A DNA stretch of 64,000 bases, from contig JAIZWL010000001.1 of the NCBI GenBank assembly GCA_021498125.1, forward strand, positions 773,434 to 837,433, read 5' to 3'. Source of the DNA: Candidatus Thorarchaeota archaeon (lineage in GTDB: Archaea > Asgardarchaeota > Thorarchaeia > Thorarchaeales > Thorarchaeaceae). The stretch's first letter is position 1; each line of letters begins with the position of its first letter. The notes beneath the pieces are model-generated. The model was not told the DNA's origin. It made no database searches and saw nothing but the letters and a program-made list of their open reading frames with translations. This document shows positions 5,087 through 63,639 of the stretch, piece after piece. The translations under genes and the position numbers were made by a program.

Positions 5087-5169
5087 ATTAATCAGGAAAT
5101 GTGCCCTATTATGGTATGCTTGAGAGGACCGCGCCCTCTCCTTGGCAGCCAATTAGAGGAGGCTACCAT

Positions 5170-8100: not shown

Positions 8101-8433
8101 GTGACCATGACTCATGTGGGTGATTATTATGAGGCCACGATCCCTGCACTCCCCGAAGGGGCAACAGTGACCTATCGTGTACATGCACGTGATAATGTGG
8201 GTAATTGGGCGGTGAGCAGCGACTTCTCATATACTGTCACCGGTGGCACTACGACCACCACAACTACCACTACCACTACGACCACCACCACCACAACAAC
8301 AGCACCCACCACGACGACACCCACCTCTTCGACATTGCCTGACAAAGCGGATCCGCTGATACTGGGAGCCATGTTCGGGATCATTCTAATTCTGATCATT
8401 CTCTCGGTCAAGTGGTCCCGGCGTGAGCAATGA
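5170..8433 (+). CDS. Subtilisin-like serine protease (peptidase S8) with a poly-Thr stalk and a C-terminal TM anchor
   Basis: Catalytic Asp 'IADLDTGVDW', His 'DTDGHGTAVAGI' and Ser 'GTSASGPHVAGCAAL'. Signal peptide 'MRHVVSLLFILLLFAIPAPIA' at the ATG at 5170, preceded by GAGGAGG (the ORF alternatively opens at 5101). Ig-like repeat domains are followed by a T19 tract and the 'LILGAMFGIILILIILSVKWSRREQ' anchor. Confidence 0.9.
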   Translation: MRHVVSLLFILLLFAIPAPIAEQTNATTSASTYQTPPETISLNFQALSSIYGADIPVMVSFVDDVSASVVDRILATGVRFSFGSPQLSHVNEFYLLRGSASALETLMNTGLVRSIDVQSSINYLQSTRDVSIPEINADDAWNMLDGLGRNLTGQDILIADLDTGVDWKHPDLWFPGDTAYSWIDSTSDGKPSNGSDYVDLNGDFSGTADEVLYYIDLDSDGTYNTTTDWLWVDNISQNAEPDPGEPFFVVNDTNGNDALDVGETLVMLTTPKTKYIVEKDGTPQADLQVWVRGVNLTASTHQDTDGHGTAVAGILLGGQLNYRKYVGVAPDSELMMVRVLGSSGTALSVEEGLTWAYNHGADVILTEIGSWTYEYLDGSDSAETLINTIVSNGVPVISPAGNLGGKDKHALFNVTADTQHQTDFTIPAPDGTYVVYDINNVYITVLSINSTDFWTCNFSLIMNLAVWGGPPALTTYLHPGNGYLTFNAEPAVVWGGNTFTIESFISSSSRNTQMLGIWIHGTLPTTGSSPPWHQVNITAPSNMTFHAYISDDQSSWSGGCIWKSDMSNDYEITWPSTADDALSVASYRTRNIFAGNSVGDIASFSSRGPRIDETQKLGVAAPGGYDIISDYSNASAWQAWFNGNGQLPFGAAFGSYRLFSGTSASGPHVAGCAALMLQRDSSKGSSVKALIQNNARSDGFTGTVPNSIWGYGKLDVQAAVAAIDVASPTIHSVGLTPSVVEYYQTVEFEANVTDDSSVDSVYLKYQTNGWTSPTWAKMTLQGTGNFTVTVGPFVYNSTVFYTIYANDTSGNDAESTVANFIVGDSVAPSFANFWRSAATPGAGNPVEIRVDVVEPSGASGVDTVLLNWSASAGVWTITTMTATTGDTYSATISGQSEGTIVYYYFIANDTAGNLNASTIISYTTVAAESVPPSINSVTRDPETPDSTQSVTVTANVTDSSGVDMVILEYYNGSAWINVTMTHVGDYYEATIPALPEGATVTYRVHARDNVGNWAVSSDFSYTVTGGTTTTTTTTTTTTTTTTTTAPTTTTPTSSTLPDKADPLILGAMFGIILILIILSVKWSRREQ
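8248..8325 (+). repeat. Coding ACC/ACT/ACG microsatellite (poly-Thr linker) inside the S8 protease gene
   Basis: Run of (ACN)n codons encoding 'TTTTTTTTTTTTTTTTTTTAPTTTTPT'. Confidence 0.85.
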
Positions 8434-25700: not shown

Positions 25701-25834
25701 GTGGTGGCTCGATCCACTATCTGATGGGGACTCTTCACATAGTGACTGATTATTCAAGGGTTATTATCATAACCGCAGTAGTGGTAGGAGTCATAGTTAT
25801 AATCAAGCTGTACAAGATGAGAACTCCTCCCTAA
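22703..25834 (+). CDS. Subtilisin-like serine protease (S8) with a C-terminal TM anchor
   Basis: Asp 'VAVLDTGVDW', His 'GDDHGHGTHVASIIAG', Ser 'SGTSMAAPHVAGVLAL'. C-terminal 'VIIITAVVVGVIVIIKLYKMRTPP'. GTG start. Confidence 0.9.
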   Translation: MPMIMPLLVVPPVASMRFTPLPGLQVIDSMLAHEIENAHSSNGLASCTSIRAILQFTHELSGSQIELAESFGVRLLKRGFTPIHVGPVYLAEVSDEASLQTLTAIGLVRASPGSKQFYPSLSSSVPATKATEVRHKLTKDGSAIDGSGTLVAVLDTGVDWLHPSFWRVTTSPLNVIQSGGDYYVDLDNDSVPDSNEGPIVVVQQQNPSSIEVSNEYMYIDVKDNGNFDLTDGDRWLAGVDANDDGVITLSTEQVVVLGEPKVAIFYDQHSGNVYVRGVNLTSSALYVGDDHGHGTHVASIIAGGQPGYTDMVGVAPGADILAIRSPLMSADILDAIFFAAQNDADVINMSFSSFLGFLDGTDVEDVAISEAMRDYGLIASLASGNLAGSQKHASFEVQSGARVNASFTVSDPPDYSFLNILWYSYDDDEYVTLYSPNDESIEIGPFSEYTGKSFEVNADDLRAYVFADTSIKGTNRILVQVSQSDHFWTDGTWRVEVRNPAGETVDVNCFVWAGAWSDTHLRFTSHIDNLHTLSSPGTADLGITVGSCYDSLTSISGSSGRGPRIDGRIKPEVVAPGVGINAARNSLTSLWTVRSGTSMAAPHVAGVLALIRQASSVDSPWIAYSALVQGAGGLAGHKSIPLPDWGFGAVDALTSVRHVLSLNVSSGSTEDDWAGIPLAFGPSEDSSLNATLDIVTTRVYPTVSELDVEVTMRAAPDFSGGNTLTIEWDTDNNVATGHNGAEMKIEISGGTSTLYQWSGTAYVATSTTVGSHISGKSVLVHVGVGADLPCRLSISTFNSTDAAIDDTGWFSLTNTWRPLITDATINHAASTWTFDFTPSDIDTPITSLSYSWKVVDGDLKSLASDSGACTTHLTLSVDTAAIPTLDSPSLSLNISDDLSTLYAPLVILSGGLSVRVAVQDASLDAYTITTGPFLNGMITGEINVTGEMFIDSVSLALHSSVGYWLNFTLEGKDGVYPISVSANNIADGSYDAYAVVKDLGGGSIHYLMGTLHIVTDYSRVIIITAVVVGVIVIIKLYKMRTPP

Positions 25835-30032: not shown

Positions 30033-30172
30033 TTCGTGGGGCCCTTCTACTGATGCGTTTATCAATCTGTAATTAAGCATTCCTTTGACTGCTGTTTTGA
30101 TACTCGGTCTCTCCGAGCAGTGAAGTCTTATTATTTGATTGTATATAGATATCTGAGTGCAATGCACATTGA

Positions 30173-31815: not shown

Positions 31816-32069
31816 TAAAACAATCATTATTAGTCTTCAATTGTCAAAAGTTTATCTTACAAGATGTGAGTCGTAATGCTTAATAGTCACCGACGCGCCA
31901 AAATATTTAATCACACCGGATACCAGAGAACGCGAACAGAGGAGATAAATCCCGAAGAACCTTGAGGAGGGTTCTCGGGGTATTTTGGAGGTTCATTTAC
32001 GGCGTAGTGTGCACGCTACGTGCCACGCGCAAGTTCTCGGTGTTCAATTATGTGAGGAGAACGAAAAAA

Positions 32070-35000
32070 ATGAGCTATAAACGAACTGCAGCAGTTCTGT
32101 TGTTTATTGCGGCGTTGAGTCTGACAATGTTTGTCACGCCCGCGACACGCGTTAATACGGCAGAACCCGCTAGCGCTCCAACGCTCAGCCCAGAGGCCAA
32201 GGAGCAGCTGCAGCAATGGTATCAAGACGTTGCGCAGCCAGGCTACCAGGCCAAGGTCGATCCAGCATTGGCCGAGTGGGTTGAAACCGGAGTGCTTAGC
32301 GAAAAAGTCGTCAAGACCGCAGACGGCGGAGTCAGTGCGTTGCTTGTCTTAGCCCCATGGGCTGATGAAGCAAAGCTTGCTGACTTAGTTGAGGTGCAGT
32401 GGAAGGCTGATCTGAAGTACTTTAAAGTATGGCAGGTCACATTCTCAAGCACCAGCACAGTTTCTGCCGTTGCAGCTGTTAGTGGTGTCGGTTCTATTGA
32501 AGCCGACCAGTACAAGCTGAACATGGCTGACGACCTTCAGAAACATATCGCTACTCCAAGCACTCCTGAGCAAGGCGTGGATATCTATCATATCCGCCAA
32601 GTTGTCGGTGCTGAGACCGCTCCTGCCTCAAGTTACAATGGCACTGGAGTATACGTTGGTCAAGTTGACACTGGTGCGGACTTTGGTAACCCTGATCTTC
32701 AGGGCGCCTATGGTGCAGCCTATGACCCATCCGGTTATGGTCTAGTACCTACATTCTACCACGCTAACTCAACCCCAGTCAATGTAACAGAGTGGTCTGC
32801 CAGTCCATACAACCTTTTGACCTATGAGGGTTCAGATGGTAACATCTACCTTGATGTCAGCGGTTGGGACCCATTGCTCAATTATGAGGGCGGTGGACGA
32901 TACCTGATTGGTGATGGTGACGAAAATGCACCATACCACAAGAGGGTCGGCTTCATCTGGCTGTACGCTTACTACTGGGGCATTGAGGGTGCCGGTAATC
33001 TGATCAATAACTATCTCTGGAAAGACTGGTGTCTGCCAGACCCATCAAATGTATACGGAAATTACTCTGTTAACTTCGTCATGCAGCAGAGATGGGCTCC
33101 CTACGCCAAGATCTTCGCTCCAGCTCTTGTGATCAACAGTACCGCTGACAAGCAGTACCATCTCATCATCAACTGGGAGGACACAATGGGTTGGAACAAG
33201 CTCTGGACCGCAGGGTTCTACTACGAGTCTATTGATCTAACAAACATTCTTGATGCATACGATGTCATCAAAGAGTTCGACTGGAACTTCACCGATGATT
33301 TCGTAGAAGAAACATTCTCAAAGGCTAACCGGATTGTCGCACACGACTATGATGGAGACAGCATTGATGACTTCAGTCTTGGTGCGCTCTGTTATGTCTA
33401 CGACGCCGGTGAGTGGTTCGATACTGAACCCTACTTTGACGCATTCCGAGCCGACGGAGATGCATTTGCACTCTACTATGATGCTGGTACTCACGGTACC
33501 GCTACTGCATCTCAGGTCGCAGGACAAGGCGTCCTAACTTACAAGAACACTGATACAGGCGCAACCTTCAAGATGACTGGTGTTGCACCTGGTGCGAAGA
33601 TCTACTCAGTCCGCGGTCTCACAAGCGGTTCCGTCTTTGGCGGTTTCCTCTGGGCCTGTGGATTTGACTTGAATGCAACATCTGGTGAATTCGAGTACAC
33701 AGGGCATCACCTCTCCAATCTCGTTACAAACTCTTGGGGTTGGGTCGCTGACGCCACTAGTGAATTCAGTTACATGTCCATGACTTGGACAATCCTTTCA
33801 GTACCAAACCTACTTGATTCAACCTACCCTGGTGTCCTGCACGTATTCTCAGCAGGAAATGAGGGTGCTGGTTACATGACCGTTGCGGCTCCAGGTTGTG
33901 CATCTGGTGTCCTAACTGTAGGTGCATCTACAACAAGCCACTGGCTCGAGTACCTCTACGGACCTACTCAGCCATACGAGGGTATTGCATCATTCACCAG
34001 TAAGGGTCCCGATTTCTCCGGATATCCCAAGCCTGATGTGCTTGCACCGGGTCTTGCAGGATACGCAGCAGTCCCATGGTATAATCAGTTCATGGGTGCA
34101 TATTGGGGCAGCCACACCGATGAGTACACAGTCTTTGCTGGTACCAGTCAGGCCGCACCTGTTGCAGCTGGTGTTGCAGCTCTGTTGTTCGATGCTGCCA
34201 ACAACGCACTGACCTCATTCCAGGCAAAGATCATCCTGCAGCAGACGGCTGTTGATCTCGGCTATGATCCTGCTACTCAGGGCTTTGGTCGTATTGATGC
34301 AGCACGTGCAGTTGACTTCTATGTCAATAATGTTGGTAGAGTATCAGCCAACCTTGATTCTGCCGCAAATATTGCAAAGATTCTCCAAGATGCATGGAAG
34401 GCTGGAGGTATACTCCCCTCATCCCTTCTTGGTACATCTGTGAACACGAGCGCTGTAGCCTTCCCAGATAGTTATATGGAGGGATCGTTGTTCTTTGGCA
34501 ATGTTTGGCCGGGTACAACCTCTACAATCTATCAGTCCATAATGGACAATTCATCCGCCCTTGATAATTCTGGGTGGAGCTATAGCTATCAGCACTTCGT
34601 TAAGGCGGAGACCTTCCAGTTTACTGGTACGACTTTCGCCTATGTTGACGCCAATGTGTCTGGTGACTATGCCTATGGTTATTTCAACCTCCGCGAGGAG
34701 CTTGGTCATGCTACCTATGACAGCAACATGTCCACATACAAGTACGTCACAATTGGTGTGGCGTTCGCAGGAGATGCTGCTACTGGTGGTGAATACCCAT
34801 GGATGTTCCTCTATGACTGGGAGGACACCAATGTCACCGATGGTTATCCGAACCTCTGGAACGGAACCGATGGTAACGAGCTCCATAGGCTGACCAGTGC
34901 TAGTAATCCAAGCAACACGAACTTCATGTCGTTTGCCGATGCAACCAGCGATCTGGCTTCAGTGCTATCGGGTAACATGACAATGGTCATTCATGACCCA

Positions 35001-36821
35001 GTCTTTGATGTCAACGCAACTTATGTCAATGTCAGCGCACCTGGGCACGATTTCGTTGCTACTGTGACGTTCTGGAAAGTCACCGATCCTGGTGTCCTTT
35101 CTGCCGCCGCAGGTGGAACGACCAACACAGTGAACTTCACGTTGACTGTACCGGCCAATGCAGAAGCAGGCATCCACACGGGCTACGTCATTGCTACTAA
35201 GGGTAGCACTGTTATCAAGTTGCCATTCAGCTACAATGTAGTTGCTAACCTTAGTGCTGATGTCACCACGCCAACAACCGTTGTTGATGGCTTCGGAAGT
35301 GAGTTGACGCCATACGATGCGCCGCTCTACTGTTTAGCCTCGGATTCGAGCACGGCAGACTTCAGATCGTACTTGGTCTACAACCCACACAATGCCTCAT
35401 ACATGGGCGTTCGTGCTATCTGGGATGAACCAGGTTCTCAGATGTTTGTCGAGATCCTTGACCACAGTGGTAGCATCCTAGCTTCTGGTGGTGCCTCAAC
35501 TGCTACAACAACAGCCGTGATTGCTAACTTGGGTTCTTCACCCGTCGGCTACTACTACATCTTTGTCTACGCTGTAGCACTGAACGGAACTACATTCCTG
35601 CCAGTCAACTACACGCTAGAGGCAATCATGTACGAGAGCCTCACTGGTGGAGCAAACGATGTCATCTTGACCTACACGGCCAATGATGTCACGACTCCTG
35701 TTGCTATCCATGATGGCGACACAATCGTTGGTGATCATGCGGTCGTCAACGCTACGTATCCGAAATTCAACCTACCGAACATGCCTGAGTATGAGGTCGA
35801 TTACACGAAGATCTCATTCTTGTCTGGTGTCTTCTATCAACACACTGGTAATCTTGTGATTCCAAGTAGCTCCTACAATCCATTCTCTGGTACTATTGAT
35901 CTTACTCAGTTCGCGTGGGAGCGTGTTGATGGCATCAAGGCTGGAGACAATGTTGATGTCAAGGTCGACTTCACCAATGGCGACTGTGACATCATGATGT
36001 GGTGGGCAGATACCGACAATAGCAGCTGGTCATACGCCAACAACCTGATGGCTGATAAGATGGCTACTGGTAACAAGCCTGAGCATGGTTCGTTCACTGC
36101 GGACCGCGACGGTTCTATCATGATTGGTATCTTCGACTATGACCTCTCTGCTGGTCAGTACACAGTGACCGTTGACACCCGTGTTGGTGTGTCCAACCAA
36201 GCTTTGGGTGCAACTGTGACCTTTGACTCCTACTCGTTCCTCAAGAACGGTAGCTTCCAGGTCCAGATTCTTGCGACCACTATGACCAACATTAACTTCG
36301 AGGTCAACTTGGCCGAGCTCACCTTCCAGAACTTCTTCAGTCCAGATGTGACCAACGTGCAGATTTCCAAGTCTGGTAACGTGGTGACTATCACTTGGAC
36401 CGCAACAGACAGGAACGCAGGTGACGATCTCTACTTCGACATTTTGATGAGCCCTGACAGTGGCCTGACATGGCAGTACCTTGCTGTCAACCAGACAGGC
36501 AACTCTTACGTCTGGGACTCCTCGTCGTTCCTTGCACTCGACACCTACATGATCAGGGTTGATGTCTATGACAACGATCCGGTACAGAACCCAACTGTCG
36601 GACCTGGTGACTACTGGATGGGCCTGACTGACACCGCATACTCCTCAGTATTCTCTGCAGGAGCGGTGACAACAACACCCACTCCAACCACCTCCACAAC
36701 TACAACCGCAACTCCACCTGGTCCGGGACTTACGATCGACCCACTCATTATCGGTCTGATCGGCGGTATCGGCGTTGGTGTTGTGATCATCCTGATCTTG
36801 TTCCTAGTGAAGAAGAAGTAG
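32070..36821 (+). CDS. Very large subtilisin-like serine protease (S8, about 1580 aa) with a Thr/Pro stalk and a C-terminal TM anchor
   Basis: Asp 'VGQVDTGADFGNPDL', His 'YYDAGTHGTATASQVAG', Ser 'FAGTSQAAPVAAGVAALL'. Signal peptide 'MSYKRTAAVLLFIAALSLTMFV' at the ATG at 32070 (GAGGAG upstream). C-terminal 'TTTPTPTTSTTTTATPPGPGLTIDPLIIGLIGGIGVGVVIILILFLVKKK'. Confidence 0.9.
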   Translation: MSYKRTAAVLLFIAALSLTMFVTPATRVNTAEPASAPTLSPEAKEQLQQWYQDVAQPGYQAKVDPALAEWVETGVLSEKVVKTADGGVSALLVLAPWADEAKLADLVEVQWKADLKYFKVWQVTFSSTSTVSAVAAVSGVGSIEADQYKLNMADDLQKHIATPSTPEQGVDIYHIRQVVGAETAPASSYNGTGVYVGQVDTGADFGNPDLQGAYGAAYDPSGYGLVPTFYHANSTPVNVTEWSASPYNLLTYEGSDGNIYLDVSGWDPLLNYEGGGRYLIGDGDENAPYHKRVGFIWLYAYYWGIEGAGNLINNYLWKDWCLPDPSNVYGNYSVNFVMQQRWAPYAKIFAPALVINSTADKQYHLIINWEDTMGWNKLWTAGFYYESIDLTNILDAYDVIKEFDWNFTDDFVEETFSKANRIVAHDYDGDSIDDFSLGALCYVYDAGEWFDTEPYFDAFRADGDAFALYYDAGTHGTATASQVAGQGVLTYKNTDTGATFKMTGVAPGAKIYSVRGLTSGSVFGGFLWACGFDLNATSGEFEYTGHHLSNLVTNSWGWVADATSEFSYMSMTWTILSVPNLLDSTYPGVLHVFSAGNEGAGYMTVAAPGCASGVLTVGASTTSHWLEYLYGPTQPYEGIASFTSKGPDFSGYPKPDVLAPGLAGYAAVPWYNQFMGAYWGSHTDEYTVFAGTSQAAPVAAGVAALLFDAANNALTSFQAKIILQQTAVDLGYDPATQGFGRIDAARAVDFYVNNVGRVSANLDSAANIAKILQDAWKAGGILPSSLLGTSVNTSAVAFPDSYMEGSLFFGNVWPGTTSTIYQSIMDNSSALDNSGWSYSYQHFVKAETFQFTGTTFAYVDANVSGDYAYGYFNLREELGHATYDSNMSTYKYVTIGVAFAGDAATGGEYPWMFLYDWEDTNVTDGYPNLWNGTDGNELHRLTSASNPSNTNFMSFADATSDLASVLSGNMTMVIHDPVFDVNATYVNVSAPGHDFVATVTFWKVTDPGVLSAAAGGTTNTVNFTLTVPANAEAGIHTGYVIATKGSTVIKLPFSYNVVANLSADVTTPTTVVDGFGSELTPYDAPLYCLASDSSTADFRSYLVYNPHNASYMGVRAIWDEPGSQMFVEILDHSGSILASGGASTATTTAVIANLGSSPVGYYYIFVYAVALNGTTFLPVNYTLEAIMYESLTGGANDVILTYTANDVTTPVAIHDGDTIVGDHAVVNATYPKFNLPNMPEYEVDYTKISFLSGVFYQHTGNLVIPSSSYNPFSGTIDLTQFAWERVDGIKAGDNVDVKVDFTNGDCDIMMWWADTDNSSWSYANNLMADKMATGNKPEHGSFTADRDGSIMIGIFDYDLSAGQYTVTVDTRVGVSNQALGATVTFDSYSFLKNGSFQVQILATTMTNINFEVNLAELTFQNFFSPDVTNVQISKSGNVVTITWTATDRNAGDDLYFDILMSPDSGLTWQYLAVNQTGNSYVWDSSSFLALDTYMIRVDVYDNDPVQNPTVGPGDYWMGLTDTAYSSVFSAGAVTTTPTPTTSTTTTATPPGPGLTIDPLIIGLIGGIGVGVVIILILFLVKKK

Positions 36822-57914: not shown

Positions 57915-59930
57915 TTGAGTCCGTCGAGCAAAAAAGCACGAAAACAAGGTTCACGTACTAGATCAGTACCAAGTGTAGCGGATGCTGGTGATATCAAACA
58001 AGGCACAATTGCTAAGTTTATGCGTAAGCGGACTCAGCTTGTCGGATTTGAAACTGGCCTTAACAAACATACCCAATATGCGATAGAATTTCTTGACAAT
58101 GCTGTTGATGCACTTGAGAGCTGGTGGTGGAAGTCACCGAAGCATCCACGGCTCCCTGAGCATCTTGATCCCGCTATCATTGAGGAGATCAAAGAGAAGA
58201 TACAACCGACCCTCTACGATTCAATCGCCTTGAGTAAGAAGCTGGAAAAGGCTGTTCGCGAAGGCAAGCCTGTTGAGATTCCCACACGCCCAAAGGAGAA
58301 CCTTGAGGAAAAGGTCAAGGCGTTCCGAAAGTTTCTGATTCCCTTTAGAAGTCTCATTCGAAAAAATGAGCCATTTGCTGTCCTTCAGCTCACTGAGATT
58401 CAGATGCCTGATCTCGTCCCTCTGGATGACGAGGAAGGTCTGAAGGTCTATGAATTCACCTGTTTCGATAACGGTGTTGGGATGATCCCTCGCGACTTCG
58501 AGAAATATGGTATCTATCTAGCATCAAGCAAGTCTGAAAAACTACGACAGACACGTGGGAGTCAAGGTTTTGGTGCGCCATCAGCATTTAGCGATGCCCA
58601 AAATACAACTGGTAAACCCATATTCTCAGTCACGAAGCGCTTTACTGAGGATAAGGCAATCGTCGCAGACTTTTTCACAACGACTGCAAACACTAAACAG
58701 TATGAGGGTGGTCCGGTTGAGATGGATCTCCCGTTTGAGCATGGTACCTACATTCGTCTGCATTATTTGAATATTCAATATCGACGAGGGTATGCGGATG
58801 TCTATGCCGAGATGGCATCATTACTGAACTCCCATGTCACGATTATCTTCATTGATCCCTATGGTGTGATTCGTGTCTATCCACGTCGTGTCAATGTGTT
58901 TCCCGAAGAGCCAAAATATGCACAACCTCATCCTGCGAGTATCCGGATTGGGGAATTTCAGGATCTTTTGCGTGAGACCTCAGAGCAGACTCTTGGAGGG
59001 TTTCTGACAAAAGCATTCTGTAGAATCAGCACGAATAAGGCACGGACGATCATTCAAGAAGCGAACAAAGAACTTGGTCGCAAGCACCTACCAAAGATAA
59101 GCATGAAGACCCCTGTTGATACTCTCTCAAAAATCGAGATCGAGCTCCTTTACAAGGCGTTTTCAAGTCAAGACTATATTGCGCCTCCGACTGATACAGT
59201 TGTTCCGGTTGGTGAGGAAGTCTTTGAGCAGACCATCAAACTTGCTTATGAACCCGATTTTGTGACTGCGGTCACTCGTAGACCGACTTCAGGGAAGGGA
59301 CTCTCTTTTGCGGTTGAGGTATGTATCGCCTATGGTGGTAAGATCTCTAATGCGACCTCTGCGCCCATGGTTCTCTGGCGTTTTGTTAATCGTGTGCCCA
59401 AGCTCCGGGACAATAGTGACTGTGCAACATGGAAGGCCTGTGCCTCGGTCAATTGGCGAAATTACAAAGTTCAGACGTTCGATAATGGTATTCCTCGAGG
59501 CCCCATGATGGTCTTCATTCACGTCTGTGGTGCTTATGTCCATGTTATGTTCAAAGGGCAAAGCAAGCAGGCACTGGCGGAAGATGAGGTTCTCCTACGC
59601 GAGATCAAGTTGGCCCTTGAAGACGCGGGCCGTCGTTTCCGTCGTTTTATCACACGGCGTGAGACCGCCAAACGTAAGGCAAAACGCGCGGGAGTTCTTG
59701 CGATGTATGCGGACCAGTTTGCACAGAGTCTGGCATATATCGTTAATACTGCCAAGGGAAAGACCGTCTTTGATCCTGAGACCGTTGCAAGAAAATTACG
59801 TGATTCAATTACCGGCTTTGAGACCCAGCGTGATATTGAAGAGACCGAGTCCGATGGTGTAGGTAACGATTTGGTCTCTGACGTGCCCTTGGGCGACGTA
59901 AGTGAAGTTGACTTAACGGAGGGTGATTAG
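57915..59930 (+). CDS. top6B: DNA topoisomerase VI subunit B
   Basis: Bergerat/GHKL N-box 'IAKFMRKRTQLVGFETGLNKHTQYAIEFLDNAVDALE', G1 'CFDNGVGM', transducer domain. TTG start. The stop overlaps the top6A start. Confidence 0.85.
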   Translation: MSPSSKKARKQGSRTRSVPSVADAGDIKQGTIAKFMRKRTQLVGFETGLNKHTQYAIEFLDNAVDALESWWWKSPKHPRLPEHLDPAIIEEIKEKIQPTLYDSIALSKKLEKAVREGKPVEIPTRPKENLEEKVKAFRKFLIPFRSLIRKNEPFAVLQLTEIQMPDLVPLDDEEGLKVYEFTCFDNGVGMIPRDFEKYGIYLASSKSEKLRQTRGSQGFGAPSAFSDAQNTTGKPIFSVTKRFTEDKAIVADFFTTTANTKQYEGGPVEMDLPFEHGTYIRLHYLNIQYRRGYADVYAEMASLLNSHVTIIFIDPYGVIRVYPRRVNVFPEEPKYAQPHPASIRIGEFQDLLRETSEQTLGGFLTKAFCRISTNKARTIIQEANKELGRKHLPKISMKTPVDTLSKIEIELLYKAFSSQDYIAPPTDTVVPVGEEVFEQTIKLAYEPDFVTAVTRRPTSGKGLSFAVEVCIAYGGKISNATSAPMVLWRFVNRVPKLRDNSDCATWKACASVNWRNYKVQTFDNGIPRGPMMVFIHVCGAYVHVMFKGQSKQALAEDEVLLREIKLALEDAGRRFRRFITRRETAKRKAKRAGVLAMYADQFAQSLAYIVNTAKGKTVFDPETVARKLRDSITGFETQRDIEETESDGVGNDLVSDVPLGDVSEVDLTEGD

Positions 59931-62166
59931 GATGAGCCCCAAAAAGCGGGGGAAAAAGGAGGCCACTCAGGCAACTCTTGAGGAATTAGTAGAACCAGTG
60001 ACGAAGAAGAAGACGACAAGCGCTAAGCGATCAACATCTAAATCACGCACAACCAAGAAGTCAGCAAAAGCATCTTCAAAGACAAGTTCAAAGGCCAGCA
60101 CAACCAAGGCGCCTAAGAAAAAGACCACTAGTACGAAGAAGACGACCACAAAGAAGACCAAGTCTAAGCCAAAGGAAAAGAAGACGACCACAAAGAAGAC
60201 CAAGTCTAAGCCAAAGGAAAAGAAGACGACCACAAAGAAGACCAAGTCCAAAGAGAAGAAGGCGACACCTAAAAAGACTAAGACGAAGCCAAAAGAGAAG
60301 GTCAAAGCCAAAGAGCCAGTCAAAGAGTCGTCTGTAGAAGGACCATCACTTGATGATCTTCCGGGTGTCGGTAGCAAGACCCGCGCAAAGCTCATTGCCG
60401 CGGGATACGGGTCCATAGAAAAAATCTCAAAGACTCGTGCTTCGGCCTTATCCAAGAAGATCGAAGGCCTGTCCACAGATGGGGCAGATCATCTAATTAA
60501 GAGTGCAAAGAAACTATTGCGTGAGAGCAAAGAGAAACCTGCTGATTCCGAGGAGCAGTCAGACTATCCATCATTGACAGAGCTTCCCGGTGTCGGAAAG
60601 AAGTTAGCAGATCGTCTGGTGGATGCTGGTTATGATTCTGTTCCACGACTATCCCGCTCACGACCACAAAAAGTTGCAGCAGCAATTAGTGGACTGAGTG
60701 TTCCTAGGGCAGCTGAGATCGTGGCGGCAGCAAAAGACATGATGAATCAGATTCAGATCGCTCGAATTGTAGAACCCACGCCAGTTATTGTGGCTACCAC
60801 ACAAAAAACAAAACCTGAAAAGAAACCGACAAAGAAGGCCGAATCCAAGTCCGAGCCAAAAGAGAAGACGCCAAAGAAGTCAACAAAGAAGGAGCCAAAG
60901 AAAGTGAGCACGAGACGCACCACAAAGAAGAAGGCTCGTACAAAGAAGGTACCTCCTGTACGAAAGAAACCAATCCGTAAAAAGTCTGGACTTCCTGTAC
61001 CAAAAGCAGTCACAGACCTTGAGGCTGAGCTGAAAGCCCGGTGGGCAGGTGCTGCTGCACGTGAGGCTGCACGCGAGGAGTTTCAGGAGATCGTTGAAGT
61101 CGTGTCACTTCCACGTGAGGAAACAATAGAATTACTTGTCGAAGAGGCGATGGAGGTTCTTAATGAGGCGATCACAACAGGCCGGCCTGCGTTCGAGATC
61201 CCAAGTCGGTCCAGTGATAATATCGTCTGGGATGAGATTCGTGATCTTCTCCTGCTGGGCATGAAGACCTTTTCCAGACCTTATCACTCACTTGCCTCAG
61301 TGGTCGATGCGACTCGCACCGCTCGTGTCATGGAGATCGTCTTCAATCTACTTCAGTCCAATCTTCACGCAACGAAACGTGAGATCTATTATTCGGATGT
61401 TAACCTCTTCAGAGATCAGAAGTATAGCGATAAGATCATTGAAGATGTATCCTCAATGTTACAGACGACACGTGATAGCATTCACGTAGTGGCTTCTGCA
61501 CGTGGTTCTGCGATGGGTCGTGTACTGATTCGCGACGGCGGTGATCTAATCGACCTGACAAAAATGGGAACTGGTGGTTGGGCAATCACGCCCTTCCTTG
61601 ATCAAGTCGAGATCGTGGAGAGCGACGCAGAATTCATTCTTCTCTCGGAAAAAGACGCAGCAGTCATGAGGCTTGCAGAGGCAAAATACTGGAATCGCCA
61701 ACCCTGTATCGTTCTTACAGGCAAGGGATCTGGAGATATGGCAACAAGAGCTTTTCTTAAGCGACTTGTCAAAGAACTCGAGATTCCCGCCTTTGCCCTG
61801 GTGGACTCTGATCCATATGGGCATTACATCTATTCTGTCTTCTTGAGAGGCAGTAAGCGTCTGAGTTACGAGTCGCCCTTTATTGCAACTCCGGAACTCA
61901 AGTTGTTGGGTGTACTGAGTCGTGACCTTGATGCGTATAATATTCCCAAGTCTGTGAGAATCCCCATGGAGCCAGCGGACATCAAACGTGTAAAGGACAT
62001 GTTAAAGGAACCCTTTGTTCAGGCTAACAAGGAGTGGGTTGAGGACCTTAAACTGATGCTTAAGCTGAAAGAGAAGGCCGAGATCCAGGCATTTGCAAGT
62101 CACAGTTTCAAGTATTTGACAGACGAGTATCTGCCTACCAAACTCGAGACCGGCGACTGGATTTAA
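59923..62166 (+). CDS. top6A: DNA topoisomerase VI subunit A (Spo11 family) with a ~350-aa N-terminal Lys/Thr-rich and (HhH)2-containing extension
   Basis: Core: catalytic-Tyr CAP motif 'KREIYYSD', Toprim 'LLSEKDA' (Glu) and 'VDSDPYG' (DxD). N-extension: 'KKTTTKKTKSKPKEKK' tandem repeats, HhH motifs 'LDDLPGVGSKTRAKLIAAGYGSI' and 'LTELPGVGKKLADRLVDAGYDSV', and a second basic tract 'KTKPEKKPTKKAESKSEPKEKTPKKSTKKEPKK'. Confidence 0.9.
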   Translation: MIRMSPKKRGKKEATQATLEELVEPVTKKKTTSAKRSTSKSRTTKKSAKASSKTSSKASTTKAPKKKTTSTKKTTTKKTKSKPKEKKTTTKKTKSKPKEKKTTTKKTKSKEKKATPKKTKTKPKEKVKAKEPVKESSVEGPSLDDLPGVGSKTRAKLIAAGYGSIEKISKTRASALSKKIEGLSTDGADHLIKSAKKLLRESKEKPADSEEQSDYPSLTELPGVGKKLADRLVDAGYDSVPRLSRSRPQKVAAAISGLSVPRAAEIVAAAKDMMNQIQIARIVEPTPVIVATTQKTKPEKKPTKKAESKSEPKEKTPKKSTKKEPKKVSTRRTTKKKARTKKVPPVRKKPIRKKSGLPVPKAVTDLEAELKARWAGAAAREAAREEFQEIVEVVSLPREETIELLVEEAMEVLNEAITTGRPAFEIPSRSSDNIVWDEIRDLLLLGMKTFSRPYHSLASVVDATRTARVMEIVFNLLQSNLHATKREIYYSDVNLFRDQKYSDKIIEDVSSMLQTTRDSIHVVASARGSAMGRVLIRDGGDLIDLTKMGTGGWAITPFLDQVEIVESDAEFILLSEKDAAVMRLAEAKYWNRQPCIVLTGKGSGDMATRAFLKRLVKELEIPAFALVDSDPYGHYIYSVFLRGSKRLSYESPFIATPELKLLGVLSRDLDAYNIPKSVRIPMEPADIKRVKDMLKEPFVQANKEWVEDLKLMLKLKEKAEIQAFASHSFKYLTDEYLPTKLETGDWI
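60136..60262 (+). repeat. Tandem 45-bp coding repeat (about 2.8 copies) encoding KKTTTKKTKSKPKEK
   Basis: Copy 1 at 60136-60180 and copy 2 at 60181-60225 are identical. Copy 3 is partial and diverged. Confidence 0.85.
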
Positions 62167-62256: not shown

Positions 62257-63639
62257 TTATGCTCTTAGGATCTTTTTCTCAAGGCCCTTCAATCGCTTGG
62301 TCGCACCAGCAAGACGATATTTCTCAGCTGCCTCTTGGTACAGTGATAATGCCCGTCTACTGTCCCCCACTTTTGAGAGGTTGTTCGCCTCGCTCTCAAG
62401 GGCCTTTCCCCATTCTTCATAGGTCCGTTGAACACGTTCGGAGCATTTTGCACGCATCTTGGCAAGCGATGTGAACATGTAGAGTTCACGGGCTTTCCGA
62501 AATTGTACGATCGCCCATTCGAACTCTTTTTGTTTCAGATGCTGTTCTCCCTCGATGTAGTGCGACTCAGCCATGGCCTCATAGCCCTCGTCAACCTTTC
62601 GTGTTGCCTCCTCTAGCCCTTTCTTATCATTGGCTCTCTCATATAGTAATTTTGCTTTTTCGAAGGACTCTATTGCTTTCTCATGTTCGCTTCTCTTGAG
62701 TAACTGTAGCCCCGCCTCCATTCTGGCTCGTGCCATGGCCTCGTATACGTAGTCCGGATACTTGAAGTCGTCAGTAGTTATGACTGCTCCACAACTTGGA
62801 CACATTGGGGTCTCGAGTTCCCGCATAGGTTCTTCGACAACGATCTTCTTTGGTTTGCCAACGACGATCTCGATGAACTCCTTGCTCGTGGTTCCCTTCC
62901 CTTCAGGAAATAGGTGACTGACCGCCTTTGCGGTTCTTGACGGGTCTTCTTCTGTAAAGAGATGGGTCTTTGCATCTTCGGGTGCGGGAATAAATTCTCT
63001 AAGTGGCTCTAGGGACTCTCCGAATGTGGGATCTACTTCTCTCACAGGAACGGGTTCCATGTCCTCCATGTCCTTCGGGACTGGCGGCTCCACTTCGACA
63101 AAAGGATCTCCTTCTCTGACCATATCGGTATCGATCTCTCTTGTGATGGTCGATTCAACTTCTCTTATCATGCTCGGATCGATCTCTCGGATCTCTCCAT
63201 AATCCGATGCGGCTGTGCTCTCCGTCTCGGACTCCTCATCAACTTCCCATTCTAATGCCTCTTCGGGCCTTGTCTTCTCGCGGGTCTTCTCTTCAAGTGA
63301 GGCCGTTGTTGTTGGAGGAGGAGATTCGGCCATTACATCTTCGATAGGTTCTAGTTCAGATTCGGGAAGTAATTCTTCATCAATTGGCGGAAGACTATCT
63401 GCATCTGTGCTCTCTATTGGAGAAGGCTTTAAGGCCATACTATCCCCTGCGAGCATACTGGTCATTGTACTCTCAAGTGTGTCGAGTCGATCATCGGTGG
63501 CTGGTGTTGAGGGCGGCCTATGTGTGACTATTGCTTCTTCAGTGCCTTCTACATTCAATCGTGTGCCACAATGCAGGCAGTGTGTGGATCCTTTTGCGAC
63601 TCTATTACCACATTCCGGGCAAATAATATATTCCGGCAA
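62257..63639 (-). CDS. Hypothetical protein: N-terminal zinc ribbon, long acidic low-complexity region, second zinc ribbon, C-terminal TPR-like helices
   Basis: 'CPECGN...CLHCG', an acidic E/D/P-rich repeat region, 'CPSCGAV', and a helical-repeat C-terminus. Confidence 0.5.
   Translation of the reverse strand: MPEYIICPECGNRVAKGSTHCLHCGTRLNVEGTEEAIVTHRPPSTPATDDRLDTLESTMTSMLAGDSMALKPSPIESTDADSLPPIDEELLPESELEPIEDVMAESPPPTTTASLEEKTREKTRPEEALEWEVDEESETESTAASDYGEIREIDPSMIREVESTITREIDTDMVREGDPFVEVEPPVPKDMEDMEPVPVREVDPTFGESLEPLREFIPAPEDAKTHLFTEEDPSRTAKAVSHLFPEGKGTTSKEFIEIVVGKPKKIVVEEPMRELETPMCPSCGAVITTDDFKYPDYVYEAMARARMEAGLQLLKRSEHEKAIESFEKAKLLYERANDKKGLEEATRKVDEGYEAMAESHYIEGEQHLKQKEFEWAIVQFRKARELYMFTSLAKMRAKCSERVQRTYEEWGKALESEANNLSKVGDSRRALSLYQEAAEKYRLAGATKRLKGLEKKILRA

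What the first reader, a model, noticed from the sequence alone, without database searches (positions are those of the whole stretch)
59923..60990. Topoisomerase VI subunit A fused to an N-terminal histone-H1-like K/T-rich tail plus two (HhH)2 DNA-binding modules
Top6A/Spo11 is normally a 350-400-aa protein that begins shortly before its winged-helix CAP domain. Here the same reading frame runs for about 350 additional N-terminal codons with no stop. The extra region encodes a lysine/threonine-rich basic tract with exact 45-bp tandem repeats (KKTTTKKTKSKPKEK), then two helix-hairpin-helix pairs ('LPGVGSKTRAKLIAAGYGSI', 'LPGVGKKLADRLVDAGYDSV'), then a second K/P/T-rich tract. This looks like an appended sequence-nonspecific DNA-binding platform. 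HhH repeats on a topoisomerase recall Methanopyrus Topo V. It could tether or load topo VI on DNA or chromatin. The repeat number may be polymorphic, since it is a perfect tandem repeat.
Basis: seen in the sequence. Interest (0 to 1): 0.7.

Follow-up and report, generated by a model that had tools for sequence, protein, structure and literature searches.

The report
Topoisomerase VI with built-in DNA tether
In Thorarchaeota, the DNA-cutting subunit of topoisomerase VI carries a conserved 350-residue N-terminal extension made of lysine-rich disordered tracts and RadA-like helix-hairpin-helix domains, which most likely holds the enzyme on DNA.

Summary
One ORF (59932-62166, 744 aa) starts 1 nt after the top6B stop. 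It encodes, in order:
- a short conserved N-terminal motif (VQxTL)
- a lysine/threonine-rich disordered tract containing a perfect tandem repeat (period 42 bp, not 45 bp)
- two (HhH)2 domains
- a second K/P-rich tract
- a complete Top6A core with catalytic Tyr487, Glu573 and Asp625/Asp627

It is not an assembly artefact. More than 120 protein clusters and 63 species genomes share the architecture, almost all labelled Thorarchaeota. The HhH region is under strong purifying selection (dN/dS 0.02).

Module number varies from 2 to 7 between lineages and trades off against lysine-tract length. This suggests the two elements do the same job.

The HhH modules match the RadA N-terminal domain (about 1 Å rmsd, 41% identity). 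"H1-like" holds only for composition.

The most likely function is a sequence-nonspecific DNA tether that raises DNA affinity and processivity in a lineage reported to lack gyrase. This is inferred, not shown.

I found no paper describing the fusion. I rate it a new variant of a known kind.

Side finding: the sister Heimdallarchaeia Top6A carries an N-terminal ubiquitin-like domain instead.

The parts
57915..59930 (+). top6B, the topoisomerase VI B subunit (671 aa), first gene of the top6B-top6A pair
   Evidence: Pfam Topo-VIb_trans E 1.3e-42. PDB M. mazei Top6B 2q2e_B E 9e-55. It lies directly upstream of the HhH-Top6A gene in every related locus that has upstream DNA.
59918..59934 (+). Translational coupling junction: GGAGGG Shine-Dalgarno-like site (59918-59923), top6B stop TAG (59928-59930), 1-nt spacer, top6A ATG (59932-59934)
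   Evidence: Read directly from the sequence. In related loci the top6A start overlaps or abuts the top6B stop (-4, -1, +1 to +5 nt) and a GGAGG-type site precedes it.
59932..62166 (+). Complete HhH-Top6A gene (744 aa plus stop)
   Evidence: ORF; domains. 248 homologues, of which the best 120 are 531-855 aa and all carry HHH_5 + TP6A_N + Toprim.
59959..59994 (+). Conserved N-terminal short linear motif (residues 10-21, EATQATLEELVE; family consensus [EK][TI]V-Q-x-T-L-G-[DE]-h-h)
   Evidence: Q, T and L are invariant in all 116 of 121 sequences that contain the Q.[TS]L pattern used to locate the motif. Four of the five without it are N-terminally truncated. AF2 models it as disordered and does not dock it onto the rest of the chain.
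59998..60336 (+). Lysine/threonine/serine-rich disordered tract 1 (residues 23-135, net charge +41)
   Evidence: Composition and low positional conservation: 22% identity and 37% gaps. pLDDT below 45. dN/dS 0.34. Length across the family is 28-165 residues.
60136..60248 (+). Perfect 42-bp tandem repeat, 2.7 copies (unit KKTTTKKTKSKPKE); degenerate extension to 60282
   Evidence: TRF: period 42, 100% matches, score 226. The orthologous array in L064 has 2.2 copies at 98% identity with a different unit.
60337..60531 (+). (HhH)2 module A (residues 136-200; hairpins LPGVG and IEGLS)
   Evidence: Pfam HHH_5. pLDDT 82-89, helices 148-199. 35% identity to the Thor RadA N-terminal domain. G147, Y159, G179 and A185 are invariant.
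60562..60771 (+). (HhH)2 module B (residues 211-280; hairpins LPGVG and ISGLS)
   Evidence: Pfam HHH_5 at residues 214-269. pLDDT 85-94. Foldseek to M. voltae RadA N-terminal domain: 0.9-1.0 Å over 58 residues, 41% identity. PDB sequence hits to L32e N-terminal domain, Topo V and RadA. G222, K224, G233, Y234, G254 and A260 are invariant.
60808..60981 (+). Lysine/proline-rich disordered tract 2 (residues 293-350, net charge +22)
   Evidence: Composition. pLDDT below 50. dN/dS 0.73.
60982..61311 (+). Conserved junction (near-invariant SGLPVP motif, residues 352-357) plus the helical N-terminal part of the Top6A core (residues 351-460)
   Evidence: S352 is invariant and G353, L354, V356 and P357 are nearly invariant; W371 is invariant. 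Helices 358-379 and 395-416. Alignment to S. shibatae and M. mazei Top6A begins at about residue 400.
61312..61626 (+). Winged-helix/CAP domain with catalytic tyrosine Tyr487 (codon 61390-61392, in KREIYYS)
   Evidence: Pfam TP6A_N E 3.2e-20. The motif aligns with the tyrosine motif of 2zbk_A and 1d3y_A. Y487 is invariant in 78 sequences.
61627..62163 (+). Toprim domain with metal-binding Glu573 and Asp625/Asp627 (DSDPYG)
   Evidence: Pfam TOP6A-Spo11_Toprim E 3.1e-54. The residues are invariant. No nonsynonymous changes against 59 synonymous ones versus the 95%-identical relative, over residues 461-744.

Best explanation
This is the A (DNA-cleaving) subunit of a type IIB topoisomerase (topo VI) from a Thorarchaeon. 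It is co-translated with its B subunit from a top6B-top6A gene pair.

**What the protein contains**
The catalytic core is intact and belongs to the Asgard Top6A group closest to eukaryotic Top6A/SPO11. About 350 residues are fused to its N-terminus:
- a short invariant VQxTL peptide
- a strongly cationic disordered Lys/Thr/Ser tract
- two RadA-N-terminal-type (HhH)2 domains
- a second cationic Lys/Pro tract

**Proposed mechanism (inferred)**
Each A2B2 enzyme carries two flexible, sequence-nonspecific DNA-binding arms. They emerge at the outer edge of the winged-helix domains, next to where the bent G-segment arms leave the enzyme.
- The Lys tracts would bind DNA electrostatically.
- The HhH hairpins would bind the phosphate backbone.

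Together they would keep the enzyme on DNA between strand-passage cycles. That would raise DNA affinity, processivity and perhaps salt tolerance. Solved examples of topo VI are slow and highly distributive, and Thorarchaeota are reported to lack gyrase.

The invariant N-terminal peptide probably recruits a partner protein that is still unknown.

**Shown versus inferred**
- Shown: the gene structure, the domain identities, conservation, selection, and the trade-off between modules and tracts.
- Inferred: DNA binding, the geometry, the effect on processivity, and partner recruitment.
For: **Real gene and real start**
- The ATG lies 1 nt after the top6B stop, behind a GGAGGG site. The same coupling recurs in related loci.
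- Top6B is upstream in every locus that has upstream DNA.
- 248 homologues were found; the best 120 all combine HHH_5 with Top6A domains.
- 63 species genomes carry it.

**Selection against a 95%-identical relative**
- HhH region: dN/dS 0.02 (27 synonymous, 2 nonsynonymous changes).
- Core: 0 nonsynonymous against 59 synonymous changes.
- Lys tracts: dN/dS 0.34 and 0.73, with composition retained.

**Active enzyme**
Tyr487, Glu573 and Asp625/Asp627 are invariant.

**The modules are (HhH)2 domains of a DNA-binding type**
- Pfam HHH_5.
- PDB sequence hits to Topo V, RadA and L32e (HhH)2 domains.
- AF2 pLDDT 82-94.
- Foldseek to the RadA N-terminal domain: 0.9-1.0 Å, 41% identity.
- 35-41% identity to the RadA N-terminal domain of a sister Thorarchaeon.
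- Hairpin glycines are invariant.

**Tracts and modules look interchangeable**
- Relatives have 2, 3, 4 or 7 modules.
- Hairpin number correlates negatively with Lys-tract length (Spearman -0.52, p 4e-6).
- Median tract net charge falls from about +45 to +11/+26 in the lineages with the most modules.

**Context from papers**
- Gyrase seems absent in Thorarchaeota (PMC9348778).
- M. mazei topo VI is a slow, highly distributive relaxase (PMC8837201).
- Lysine repeats make Streptomyces TopA highly processive (PMC5714199).
- Winged-helix domains flank the Toprim dimer, and the bent DNA arms run along Top6B (PMC13040014).
Against: - No DNA-binding, activity or processivity data exist for any member.
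- (HhH)2 domains can also mediate protein contacts. The tandem modules also match NusA AR1/AR2 in the fold search.
- The AF2 model of the full protein is poor for the core (mean pLDDT 54.9). It gives no information on how the arms sit relative to the DNA gate.
- The module/tract correlation is not corrected for phylogeny.
- According to PMC12680538, Thorarchaeia may hold up to three Top6A copies. This copy could therefore be specialised rather than the housekeeping enzyme.
- The partner of the VQxTL motif is unknown.
Confidence: 0.6

Rival explanations
1. Artefact. The long ORF is a false fusion from a sequencing or assembly error, or translation really starts at the internal Met near MEVLNEAITTGRP and the upstream frame is untranslated.
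For: None found. Single-genome ORFs with low-complexity AAG-rich stretches can arise by chance. The region also produces spurious antisense ORFs (59967-60476 and 60753-61013 on the minus strand).
Against: - The same architecture occurs in at least 120 clusters at 90% identity and in 63 species genomes from independent assemblies.
- dN/dS is 0.02 across the HhH region.
- There is no intergenic gap. The ATG sits 1 nt after the top6B stop behind an SD-like site.
- The extreme N-terminus carries an invariant motif.
Confidence: 0.01
2. A protein-recruitment scaffold rather than a DNA tether. The RadA-N-terminal-like (HhH)2 modules and the VQxTL peptide mainly bind other proteins (replisome, recombination or chromatin factors). 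They would localise topo VI rather than contact DNA themselves.
For: - The tandem modules also resemble NusA AR1/AR2 in the fold search. From my own knowledge, these are protein-binding (HhH)2 domains.
- The invariant N-terminal peptide embedded in a disordered tract has the hallmarks of a short linear interaction motif.
- The motif partly resembles a PIP box. Q and L are invariant and Q-[AS]-T-L is typical of archaeal and yeast PIP boxes (own knowledge). One relative has QETLGDFV (L042).
- The sister Heimdall clade carries a ubiquitin-like domain, a protein-interaction domain, at the same position.
Against: - The aromatic pair that defines PIP boxes is absent. Positions 7-8 are aliphatic in most sequences and not hydrophobic at all in the lineages with many HhH modules (QMTLDASD, QSTLLEHD).
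- Net charge of +41 and +22 in the tracts, and the trade-off between tracts and HhH modules, fit a polyanion (DNA) ligand better.
- Hairpin glycines typical of DNA-binding HhH motifs are invariant.
Confidence: 0.2
3. Chromatin or condensate targeting. The H1-like lysine tracts drive association with, or co-condensation on, archaeal chromatin. They would concentrate topo VI in a nucleoid phase rather than act as a processivity clamp on a single DNA molecule.
For: - The long cationic disordered tracts are conserved in composition but not in sequence.
- There are a median of 2 (range 0-6) [ST]P.[KR] motifs per protein.
- The tandem repeat evolves in concert and tract length is labile.
- From my own knowledge, the disordered basic C-terminal domain of eukaryotic topo II promotes condensation on DNA.
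Against: - There is no linker-histone globular domain.
- Alanine content is about 9%, well below what I recall for H1 C-terminal tails.
- Some lineages nearly lose tract 1 and gain folded HhH modules instead. That argues against a requirement for disorder as such.
- This reading overlaps with the main explanation and is not exclusive of it.
Confidence: 0.12
4. A repair-active extension as in Topo V. The (HhH)2 modules would carry AP-lyase/dRP-lyase activity through lysines, making the enzyme a combined topoisomerase and repair protein.
For: - Topo V (HhH)2 repeats are among the PDB matches (E 3e-4; Foldseek rank 24).
- From my own knowledge, some Topo V (HhH)2 domains have AP-lyase activity.
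- K224 is invariant.
Against: - The closest match is the RadA N-terminal domain, not the Topo V repeats.
- No lyase-family signature passed curated thresholds for a catalytic domain.
- Variable module number fits a dosage-type binding role better than catalysis.
Confidence: 0.03

Closest known systems
Canonical archaeal topoisomerase VI A subunit (M. jannaschii 1D3Y, S. shibatae 2ZBK, M. mazei 2Q2E/9O0G) and eukaryotic Top6A/SPO11
   Same: - The winged-helix domain has the catalytic Tyr and the Toprim domain has E and DxD.
- A Top6B partner gene lies adjacent.
- The core matches 2zbk_A at E 1.6e-61.
- The core is 44-48% identical to Heimdall-clade and eukaryote-like Top6A, and 35% identical to the mammalian SPO11 cluster.
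   Different: About 350-380 extra N-terminal residues (VQxTL motif, two Lys-rich disordered tracts, two (HhH)2 domains). Canonical proteins are 350-400 aa and start shortly before the winged-helix domain.
Methanopyrus kandleri topoisomerase V
   Same: A topoisomerase with a covalently attached tandem array of (HhH)2 domains. Sequence and fold matches to its repeats are seen. From my own knowledge, the array confers DNA affinity, processivity and salt resistance.
   Different: - Topo V is a type IC enzyme with an unrelated catalytic domain.
- Its array is C-terminal and has 12 (HhH)2 domains, some with lyase activity.
- Here the array is N-terminal, has 2-7 modules, sits on a type IIB enzyme, and is combined with Lys-rich disordered tracts.
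Actinobacterial topoisomerase I (Streptomyces/Mycobacterium TopA) with lysine-repeat C-terminal domain (PMC5714199)
   Same: A lineage-specific lysine-repeat tail appended to a topoisomerase. In TopA it stabilises the enzyme-DNA complex and confers high processivity. Repeat length varies between lineages.
   Different: - TopA is a type IA enzyme.
- Its tail is C-terminal.
- It has no HhH modules.
- It is bacterial.
RadA/Rad51 N-terminal (HhH)2 domain (Pfam HHH_5)
   Same: The modules are of this subtype: 35-41% identity to the RadA N-terminal domain of a sister Thorarchaeon, and 0.9-1.0 Å over 58 residues to M. voltae RadA. In the 95%-identical relative, radA lies about 3 kb downstream.
   Different: The modules are duplicated in tandem and fused to a topoisomerase rather than to a RecA-fold ATPase.
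Linker histone H1 C-terminal tail
   Same: A long, strongly cationic, low-complexity disordered tract with occasional [ST]P.[KR] motifs.
   Different: - There is no GH1/GH5 winged-helix globular domain (no Pfam hit).
- The tracts are rich in T and S and lower in A than I recall for H1 tails.
- There is no sequence homology.
Ubiquitin-like-domain Top6A of Heimdallarchaeia
   Same: It is the nearest non-Thor relative of the core (48% identity). It also carries a lineage-specific domain fused at the Top6A N-terminus.
   Different: The added domain is a roughly 80-residue beta-grasp ubiquitin fold. It is not HhH or Lys-rich, which suggests a different, protein-mediated kind of regulation.

Membership tests
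Topoisomerase VI subunit A / Spo11 (type IIB) | Winged-helix (CAP) domain carrying the catalytic tyrosine | tested here: met
   Pfam TP6A_N E 3.2e-20. KREIYYS aligns with the tyrosine motif of 2zbk_A and 1d3y_A. Y487 is invariant in 78 sequences.
Topoisomerase VI subunit A / Spo11 (type IIB) | Toprim domain with conserved Glu and DxD metal-binding residues | tested here: met
   Pfam TOP6A-Spo11_Toprim E 3.1e-54. E573 and D625/D627 are invariant.
Topoisomerase VI subunit A / Spo11 (type IIB) | Partner Top6B (GHKL ATPase plus transducer) present | tested here: met
   The adjacent gene 57915-59930 gives Topo-VIb_trans E 1.3e-42 and 2q2e_B E 9e-55. The pairing is conserved in related loci.
Topoisomerase VI subunit A / Spo11 (type IIB) | ATP-dependent double-strand passage activity | not testable with these tools
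   Requires purified Top6A/B and relaxation and decatenation assays.
(HhH)2 domain, RadA-N-terminal / HHH_5 type | Two helix-hairpin-helix motifs (h-x-G-h-G hairpins) joined by a connector helix in a roughly 60-residue five-helix bundle | tested here: met
   Pfam HHH_5, two stretches, E 5.6e-15. The AF2 helices have pLDDT 82-94. Foldseek to the RadA N-terminal domain gives rmsd 0.9-1.0 Å. Hairpin glycines are invariant.
(HhH)2 domain, RadA-N-terminal / HHH_5 type | Sequence-nonspecific DNA backbone binding | not testable with these tools
   Requires EMSA or fluorescence anisotropy with the isolated modules.
Topoisomerase V (type IC) | Topo V-type N-terminal topoisomerase catalytic domain | tested here: not met
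   PDB matches to Topo V cover only its (HhH)2 repeats (chain residues 618-680). The catalytic part here is Top6A.
Topoisomerase V (type IC) | Tandem (HhH)2 array covalently attached to the topoisomerase | tested here: met
   Two modules here and up to seven in P0121. However, the array is N-terminal and shorter than the 12 in Topo V.
Linker histone H1 | Globular winged-helix GH1/GH5 domain | tested here: not met
   No Linker_histone hit among 13 Pfam families at E up to 0.01.
Linker histone H1 | Lys-rich disordered tail | tested here: inconclusive
   The tracts are cationic and disordered, but the composition is K/T/S/P with about 9% A. The resemblance is compositional only.
PCNA-interacting peptide (PIP box) | Q-x-x-[LIM]-x-x-[FYW]-[FYW] at a protein terminus | tested here: not met
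   Q and L are invariant and the motif is terminal. Positions 7-8 are aliphatic ([LV][VLI]) in most sequences and non-hydrophobic in the lineages with many HhH modules. An aromatic residue at position 7 was seen in only one sequence, L042. PCNA binding itself was not testable.

The most novel reading that the evidence does not exclude
The N-terminus of the eukaryote-like Asgard Top6A is an evolutionary docking site for lineage-specific control modules.
- In Thorarchaeia, a VQxTL partner-binding peptide plus a Lys-tract/(HhH)2 DNA tether would turn a normally distributive topo VI into a processive, salt-tolerant enzyme. That enzyme might be recruited to the replisome or chromatin, and could serve as the main relaxase of a gyrase-less cell.
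- In Heimdallarchaeia, a ubiquitin-like domain sits at the same position.

Together these would be pre-eukaryotic experiments in regulating Top6A/Spo11 through appended modules. They would foreshadow the accessory-factor control of eukaryotic Top6A and SPO11.
Probability: 0.25. Interest if true: 0.75.

Novelty: new variant of a known kind. Interest (0 to 1): 0.5.

Why it matters
**A puzzle about topo VI.** Topo VI is the main type II topoisomerase of most archaea and the ancestor of the meiotic nuclease SPO11. The forms studied so far are slow and highly distributive. That leaves open how gyrase-less archaea cope with replication-driven supercoiling.

**A natural experiment.** This enzyme has built-in DNA tethers whose dosage (2-7 HhH modules against Lys tracts) varies between lineages. 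It can be used to test whether extra DNA contacts make a type IIB enzyme processive or salt-tolerant. It is also a template for engineering such enzymes.

**Relevance to eukaryotic origins.** The core belongs to the Asgard group closest to eukaryotic Top6A/SPO11. The sister Heimdall lineage carries a ubiquitin-like domain at the same site. The finding therefore bears on how regulation of this enzyme family evolved before eukaryotes.

**A practical point.** NCBI's automatic annotation names these proteins "helix-hairpin-helix domain-containing protein". Name-based surveys will therefore under-count topo VI in Thorarchaeota.

Tried and rejected
- **HhH region alone as a database query.** Searching residues 136-280 returned no hit, not even the known homologues. 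This is a limit of the word index. I could not ask whether the same cassette is fused to other Thor enzymes.
- **AF2 of the full-length protein.** It gave confident HhH modules and disordered tracts, but a poor core (mean pLDDT 54.9), probably because the alignment is shallow. It gives no information on inter-domain geometry or on docking of the VQxTL peptide.
- **PIP-box idea.**
  - I scanned 897 ORFs in the window and 64 loci for terminal canonical PIP boxes, to learn what Thor PIP boxes look like. Only 4 hits appeared and none was informative.
  - The window holds no replication protein to compare with.
  - The aromatic pair is missing, so I do not file the motif as a PIP box.
- **Locus L053 (closed Thor chromosome CP070658).** It seemed to lack the extension and Top6B, but the upstream region is masked with N runs. 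It is uninformative.
- **Other long Top6A representatives (767-947 aa).** I checked whether they were alternative fusions. All ten carry inteins. The long eukaryotic N-termini have no Pfam domain.
- **Literature.** Seven searches combined topo VI, Top6A, Asgard or Thorarchaeota with HhH or helix-hairpin-helix, and topo VI with ubiquitin-like and Heimdall. None found a description of either fusion. The library is incomplete, so prior description elsewhere cannot be excluded.
- **Copy number of Top6A paralogues in Thor genomes.** I rely on PMC12680538.

Full report
**1. What is in the sequence**

The + strand carries two adjacent genes.
- The first (57915-59930, 671 aa) is Top6B. Pfam gives Topo-VIb_trans at E 1.3e-42, and M. 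mazei Top6B 2q2e_B matches at E 9e-55.
- Its TAG stop (59928-59930) is followed, after one nucleotide, by an ATG at 59932. That ATG opens a 744-codon frame ending at 62166.
- A GGAGGG Shine-Dalgarno-like site lies 9-14 nt upstream of this ATG, inside the end of top6B.

Pfam places these domains on the 744-aa product:
- two HHH_5 stretches, E 5.6e-15
- TP6A_N at residues 461-519, E 3.2e-20
- TOP6A-Spo11_Toprim at residues 568-738, E 3.1e-54

Alignment with solved Top6A chains begins at about residue 400, opposite residue 18 of the S. shibatae and M. mazei proteins. So about 380 residues are extra, and residues 1-350 correspond to the finding's coordinates.

The catalytic residues are present and invariant across 78 homologues: Tyr487 in KREIYYS, Glu573, and Asp625/Asp627 in DSDPYG.

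**2. Anatomy of the extension**

| Residues | Feature | Evidence |
|---|---|---|
| 10-21 | Short conserved motif (ATQATLEELVE) | |
| 23-135 | Tract 1: 42% K+R, 38% T+S, net charge +41 | |
| 136-200 | (HhH)2 module A | |
| 201-210 | Acidic linker | |
| 211-280 | (HhH)2 module B | |
| 293-350 | Tract 2: 47% K+R, 14% P, net charge +22 | |
| 352-357 | Near-invariant SGLPVP junction, leading into the helical start of the Top6A core | |

Tract 1 contains a perfect tandem repeat. Tandem Repeats Finder gives a 42-bp period with 2.7 copies at 100% identity over 60136-60248, decaying to 60282.

AlphaFold2, run with a 78-sequence alignment, models both HhH modules confidently (pLDDT 82-94) and both tracts as disordered (below 45). 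The core came out poorly, probably because the alignment is shallow, so I make no claim about inter-domain geometry.

**3. It is a real, translated, conserved gene**

A search of 5.8 billion protein clusters returned 248 homologues.
- The best 120 are 531-855 aa; the shortest are partial sequences.
- All combine HHH_5 with the two Top6A domains.
- Where a source gives a name, it is almost always Candidatus Thorarchaeota. The name assigned is "helix-hairpin-helix domain-containing protein" or "SPO11".

A scan of one genome per GTDB species found 63 loci, again essentially all Thorarchaeota or Promethearchaeota MAGs. They include two closed chromosomes.

Gene arrangement is conserved.
- Top6B lies directly upstream wherever upstream DNA is available.
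- The top6A start overlaps or abuts the top6B stop (-4, -1, +1 to +5 nt) behind a GGAGG-type site. In other loci a GTG or TTG opens the frame a few codons after the preceding stop.

I compared the gene with a 95%-identical relative (P0001, locus L064, same gene order). The results are:

| Region | dN/dS | Changes |
|---|---|---|
| HhH modules | 0.02 | 27 synonymous, 2 nonsynonymous |
| Core (residues 461-744) | 0 | 59 synonymous, 0 nonsynonymous |
| Lys tract 1 | 0.34 | 20.5 synonymous, 26.5 nonsynonymous |
| Lys tract 2 | 0.73 | 4 synonymous, 10 nonsynonymous |

This rules out a false fusion and an internal start. The antisense ORFs listed in the region are by-products of the AAG-rich coding strand.

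**4. What the modules are**

Sequence search of residues 1-354 against the PDB hits only (HhH)2 domains:
- the N-terminal domain of Haloarcula L32e
- repeats of M. kandleri Topo V
- the N-terminal domain of RadA/Rad51

Foldseek superposes module B on the M. voltae RadA N-terminal domain at 0.9-1.0 Å over 58 residues, with 41% identity. The tandem pair also matches NusA AR1/AR2 and Topo V.

The two modules are 41% and 35% identical to the N-terminal domain of the RadA encoded about 3 kb downstream in the sister contig.

The hairpin glycines and neighbouring residues are invariant: G147, G179, G222, K224 and G254.

No linker-histone domain is detected. Family-wide tract composition is roughly K 32-35%, T+S 13-22%, P 10-15% and A 9%. 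"H1-like" is therefore a compositional analogy only.

**5. Variation that hints at function**

Module number is not fixed.
- Most proteins have two modules.
- P0052 has three.
- P0010, P0023, P0024 and P0041 have four.
- P0121 (950 aa) has seven HHH_5 stretches and almost no Lys tract.

Across 69 aligned proteins:
- Hairpin number correlates negatively with total Lys-tract length (Spearman -0.52, p 4e-6). This is not corrected for phylogeny.
- Median tract charge falls from about +45 to +26 and +11 in the forms with the most modules.

Two chemically different, sequence-nonspecific nucleic-acid binders thus appear to substitute for one another. That is what a dosage-type DNA tether would predict.

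Tract sequences evolve fast while their composition is kept. The 42-bp array in the closest relative has about the same copy number (2.2 copies, 98% identity). Its unit differs at 5 of 42 positions by my manual comparison of the two consensus units. This indicates concerted evolution rather than a static sequence. Copy-number polymorphism itself was not observed.

Some variants with many modules come from Lake Tekirghiol MAGs (L031, L046), a site of 6% salinity (PMC7392546). From my own knowledge, HhH-DNA contacts are less salt-sensitive than lysine-phosphate contacts. That suggests a salt-adaptation angle, but this is speculative.

**6. A conserved N-terminal peptide**

In 116 of 121 sequences the first 30 residues contain [EK][TI]V-Q-x-T-L-G-[DE]-h-h, with Q, T and L invariant in those that contain the search pattern. 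Four of the five exceptions are truncated.

It sits in a disordered basic context and is not docked intramolecularly in the model. This is what a short linear interaction motif looks like.

It resembles a PIP box in its terminal position and in Q-[AS]-T-L. However, it lacks the defining aromatic pair, and in the lineages with many modules positions 7-8 are not even hydrophobic. I therefore do not call it a PIP box. Its partner is unknown.

**7. Distribution and relatives**

An exhaustive HMMER search of 1.84 billion representatives with the core alone collapses the Thor clade to two representatives, P0024 and P0121. Both bear HhH modules.

Among the best 150 hits, every other protein of 767 aa or more that I scanned (10 of 12) carries an intein. 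Long eukaryote-like sequences, and one Heimdall-clade protein, have N-termini without Pfam domains. P0122, scanned in the same call, later proved to have a weak ubiquitin hit.

The nearest non-Thor relatives are:
- a Heimdallarchaeia clade, 48% identity
- eukaryote-like Top6A, 44% identity
- the mammalian SPO11 cluster, 35% identity, which ranks among the first 30 hits

This agrees with the report that the conserved Asgard Top6A is sister to the eukaryotic proteins. The same paper says Thorarchaeia may hold further, more typically archaeal copies (PMC12680538). I could not count paralogues directly.

**8. Mechanism proposed**

These points are established: the enzyme is a complete topo VI, and its A subunit carries two folded (HhH)2 domains and two strongly cationic disordered tracts.

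The rest is inferred.
- In solved topo VI structures, the Top6A winged-helix domains flank the Toprim dimer and contact the end of the Top6B stalk. The arms of the sharply bent G-segment run outward along Top6B (PMC13040014).
- An N-terminal extension would therefore emerge on each side of the DNA gate. From there it could hold flanking DNA, or a second duplex.
- Such tethers would slow dissociation between strand-passage cycles.

There are precedents.
- Lysine repeats make Streptomyces TopA highly processive (PMC5714199).
- From my own knowledge, HhH arrays give Topo V and chimeric polymerases DNA affinity and salt resistance.

The need is plausible.
- M. mazei topo VI is a slow and highly distributive relaxase, judged too slow to support replication (PMC8837201).
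- Gyrase seems to be absent from Thorarchaeota (PMC9348778).

I put about 0.6 on this explanation as a whole. I put about 0.95 on the architectural part.

Rivals are:
- a mainly protein-recruiting scaffold (0.2)
- chromatin or condensate targeting (0.12, overlapping with the main explanation)
- a Topo V-like repair activity (0.03)
- an artefact (0.01)

**9. Novelty**

The proteins are in public databases and are auto-annotated by their HhH domain. Seven full-text searches combined topo VI, Top6A, Asgard or Thorarchaeota with HhH or helix-hairpin-helix. Apart from a general review that mentions Topo V, none found a paper. The library is incomplete.

All parts are known kinds, and so is the idea of appending DNA binders to a topoisomerase. 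A type IIB enzyme with this clade-wide, dosage-variable N-terminal platform is a new variant of a known kind.

**10. Side finding**

The Heimdallarchaeia Top6A proteins (about 460-470 aa; Hodarchaeales, Heimdallarchaeaceae and Kariarchaeaceae by NCBI names) carry an N-terminal domain of about 80 residues.
- It gives weak Pfam hits to ubiquitin and Rad60-SLD.
- AF2 models it confidently as beta-beta-alpha-beta-beta (overall pLDDT 87.5, pTM 0.84).
- It matches ubiquitin, SUMO, NEDD8, ISG15 and Caldiarchaeum ubiquitin at TM 0.71-0.84 over roughly 76-83 aligned columns for the single-domain targets.

I found no paper on this either. The Top6A N-terminus in this eukaryote-like clade therefore appears to be a hot spot for lineage-specific additions.

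Noticed in passing
Proteins P0122, P0315-P0432 (no window coordinates); alignment A2, model mdf4f871ef087: The closest non-Thor relatives of this Top6A are about 460-470-aa proteins from Heimdallarchaeia (Hodarchaeales, Heimdallarchaeaceae, Kariarchaeaceae). They carry an N-terminal ubiquitin-like beta-grasp domain fused to Top6A. Evidence: AF2 pLDDT about 90 for residues 6-78; Foldseek TM 0.71-0.84 to ubiquitin, SUMO, NEDD8 and ISG15; weak Pfam ubiquitin and Rad60-SLD hits in 7 and 5 of 55 members. My searches found no paper on it.
   Followed up: yes
window 57915-59930 (Top6B), residues ~70-165: Top6B has an insertion of about 95 residues in the GHKL ATPase domain, between the N-box (DNAVDALE, residues 61-68) and the G1 box (DNGVGM), relative to M. 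mazei Top6B. The PDB alignment jumps from query residue 69 to 165 while the chain advances from 55 to 60. I did not check whether this is Thor-specific or co-evolves with the Top6A extension.
   Followed up: no
window 59959-59994 (residues 10-21 of Top6A): An invariant N-terminal peptide, [EK][TI]VQxTLG[DE]hh, is present in 116 of 121 homologues. It is PIP-box-like but lacks the aromatic pair. Its partner is unknown.
   Followed up: partly
L064 13253-14185 (about 3 kb downstream of top6A in the 95%-identical relative; beyond the window's end): radA lies close downstream of the top6B-top6A pair. Its N-terminal (HhH)2 domain is 35-41% identical to the two Top6A modules. It is a possible donor of the modules by duplication, or the proximity may be coincidental.
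   Followed up: partly
window 62257-63639 (- strand): A 460-aa protein with an N-terminal zinc ribbon, a long acidic low-complexity middle and C-terminal TPR repeats lies convergent to top6A. The same neighbour is present in L064 and L053. Its function is unknown.
   Followed up: no
window 5101-8433, 22703-25834, 27141-30167 (-), 31962-36821: Four very large subtilase (Peptidase_S8) genes (1008-1619 aa) lie within 32 kb. This suggests a substantial complement of subtilase-family proteases in this Thorarchaeon.
   Followed up: no
Loci L031 (TEKIR_12S), L046 (TEKIR_14), L044, L012, L019; proteins P0041 (BAJATHORv1), P0121: Variants with 3-7 (HhH)2 modules and short Lys tracts include MAGs from Lake Tekirghiol (6% salinity, PMC7392546). 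One has a name that suggests Baja California mats. This hints at a link between module number and salt, but I did not test it statistically or phylogenetically.
   Followed up: partly
Database annotation of P0001-P0120: NCBI names most of these Top6A proteins "helix-hairpin-helix domain-containing protein" and JGI names them "meiotic recombination protein SPO11". Name-based surveys would therefore miss or mislabel topo VI in Thorarchaeota.
   Followed up: no
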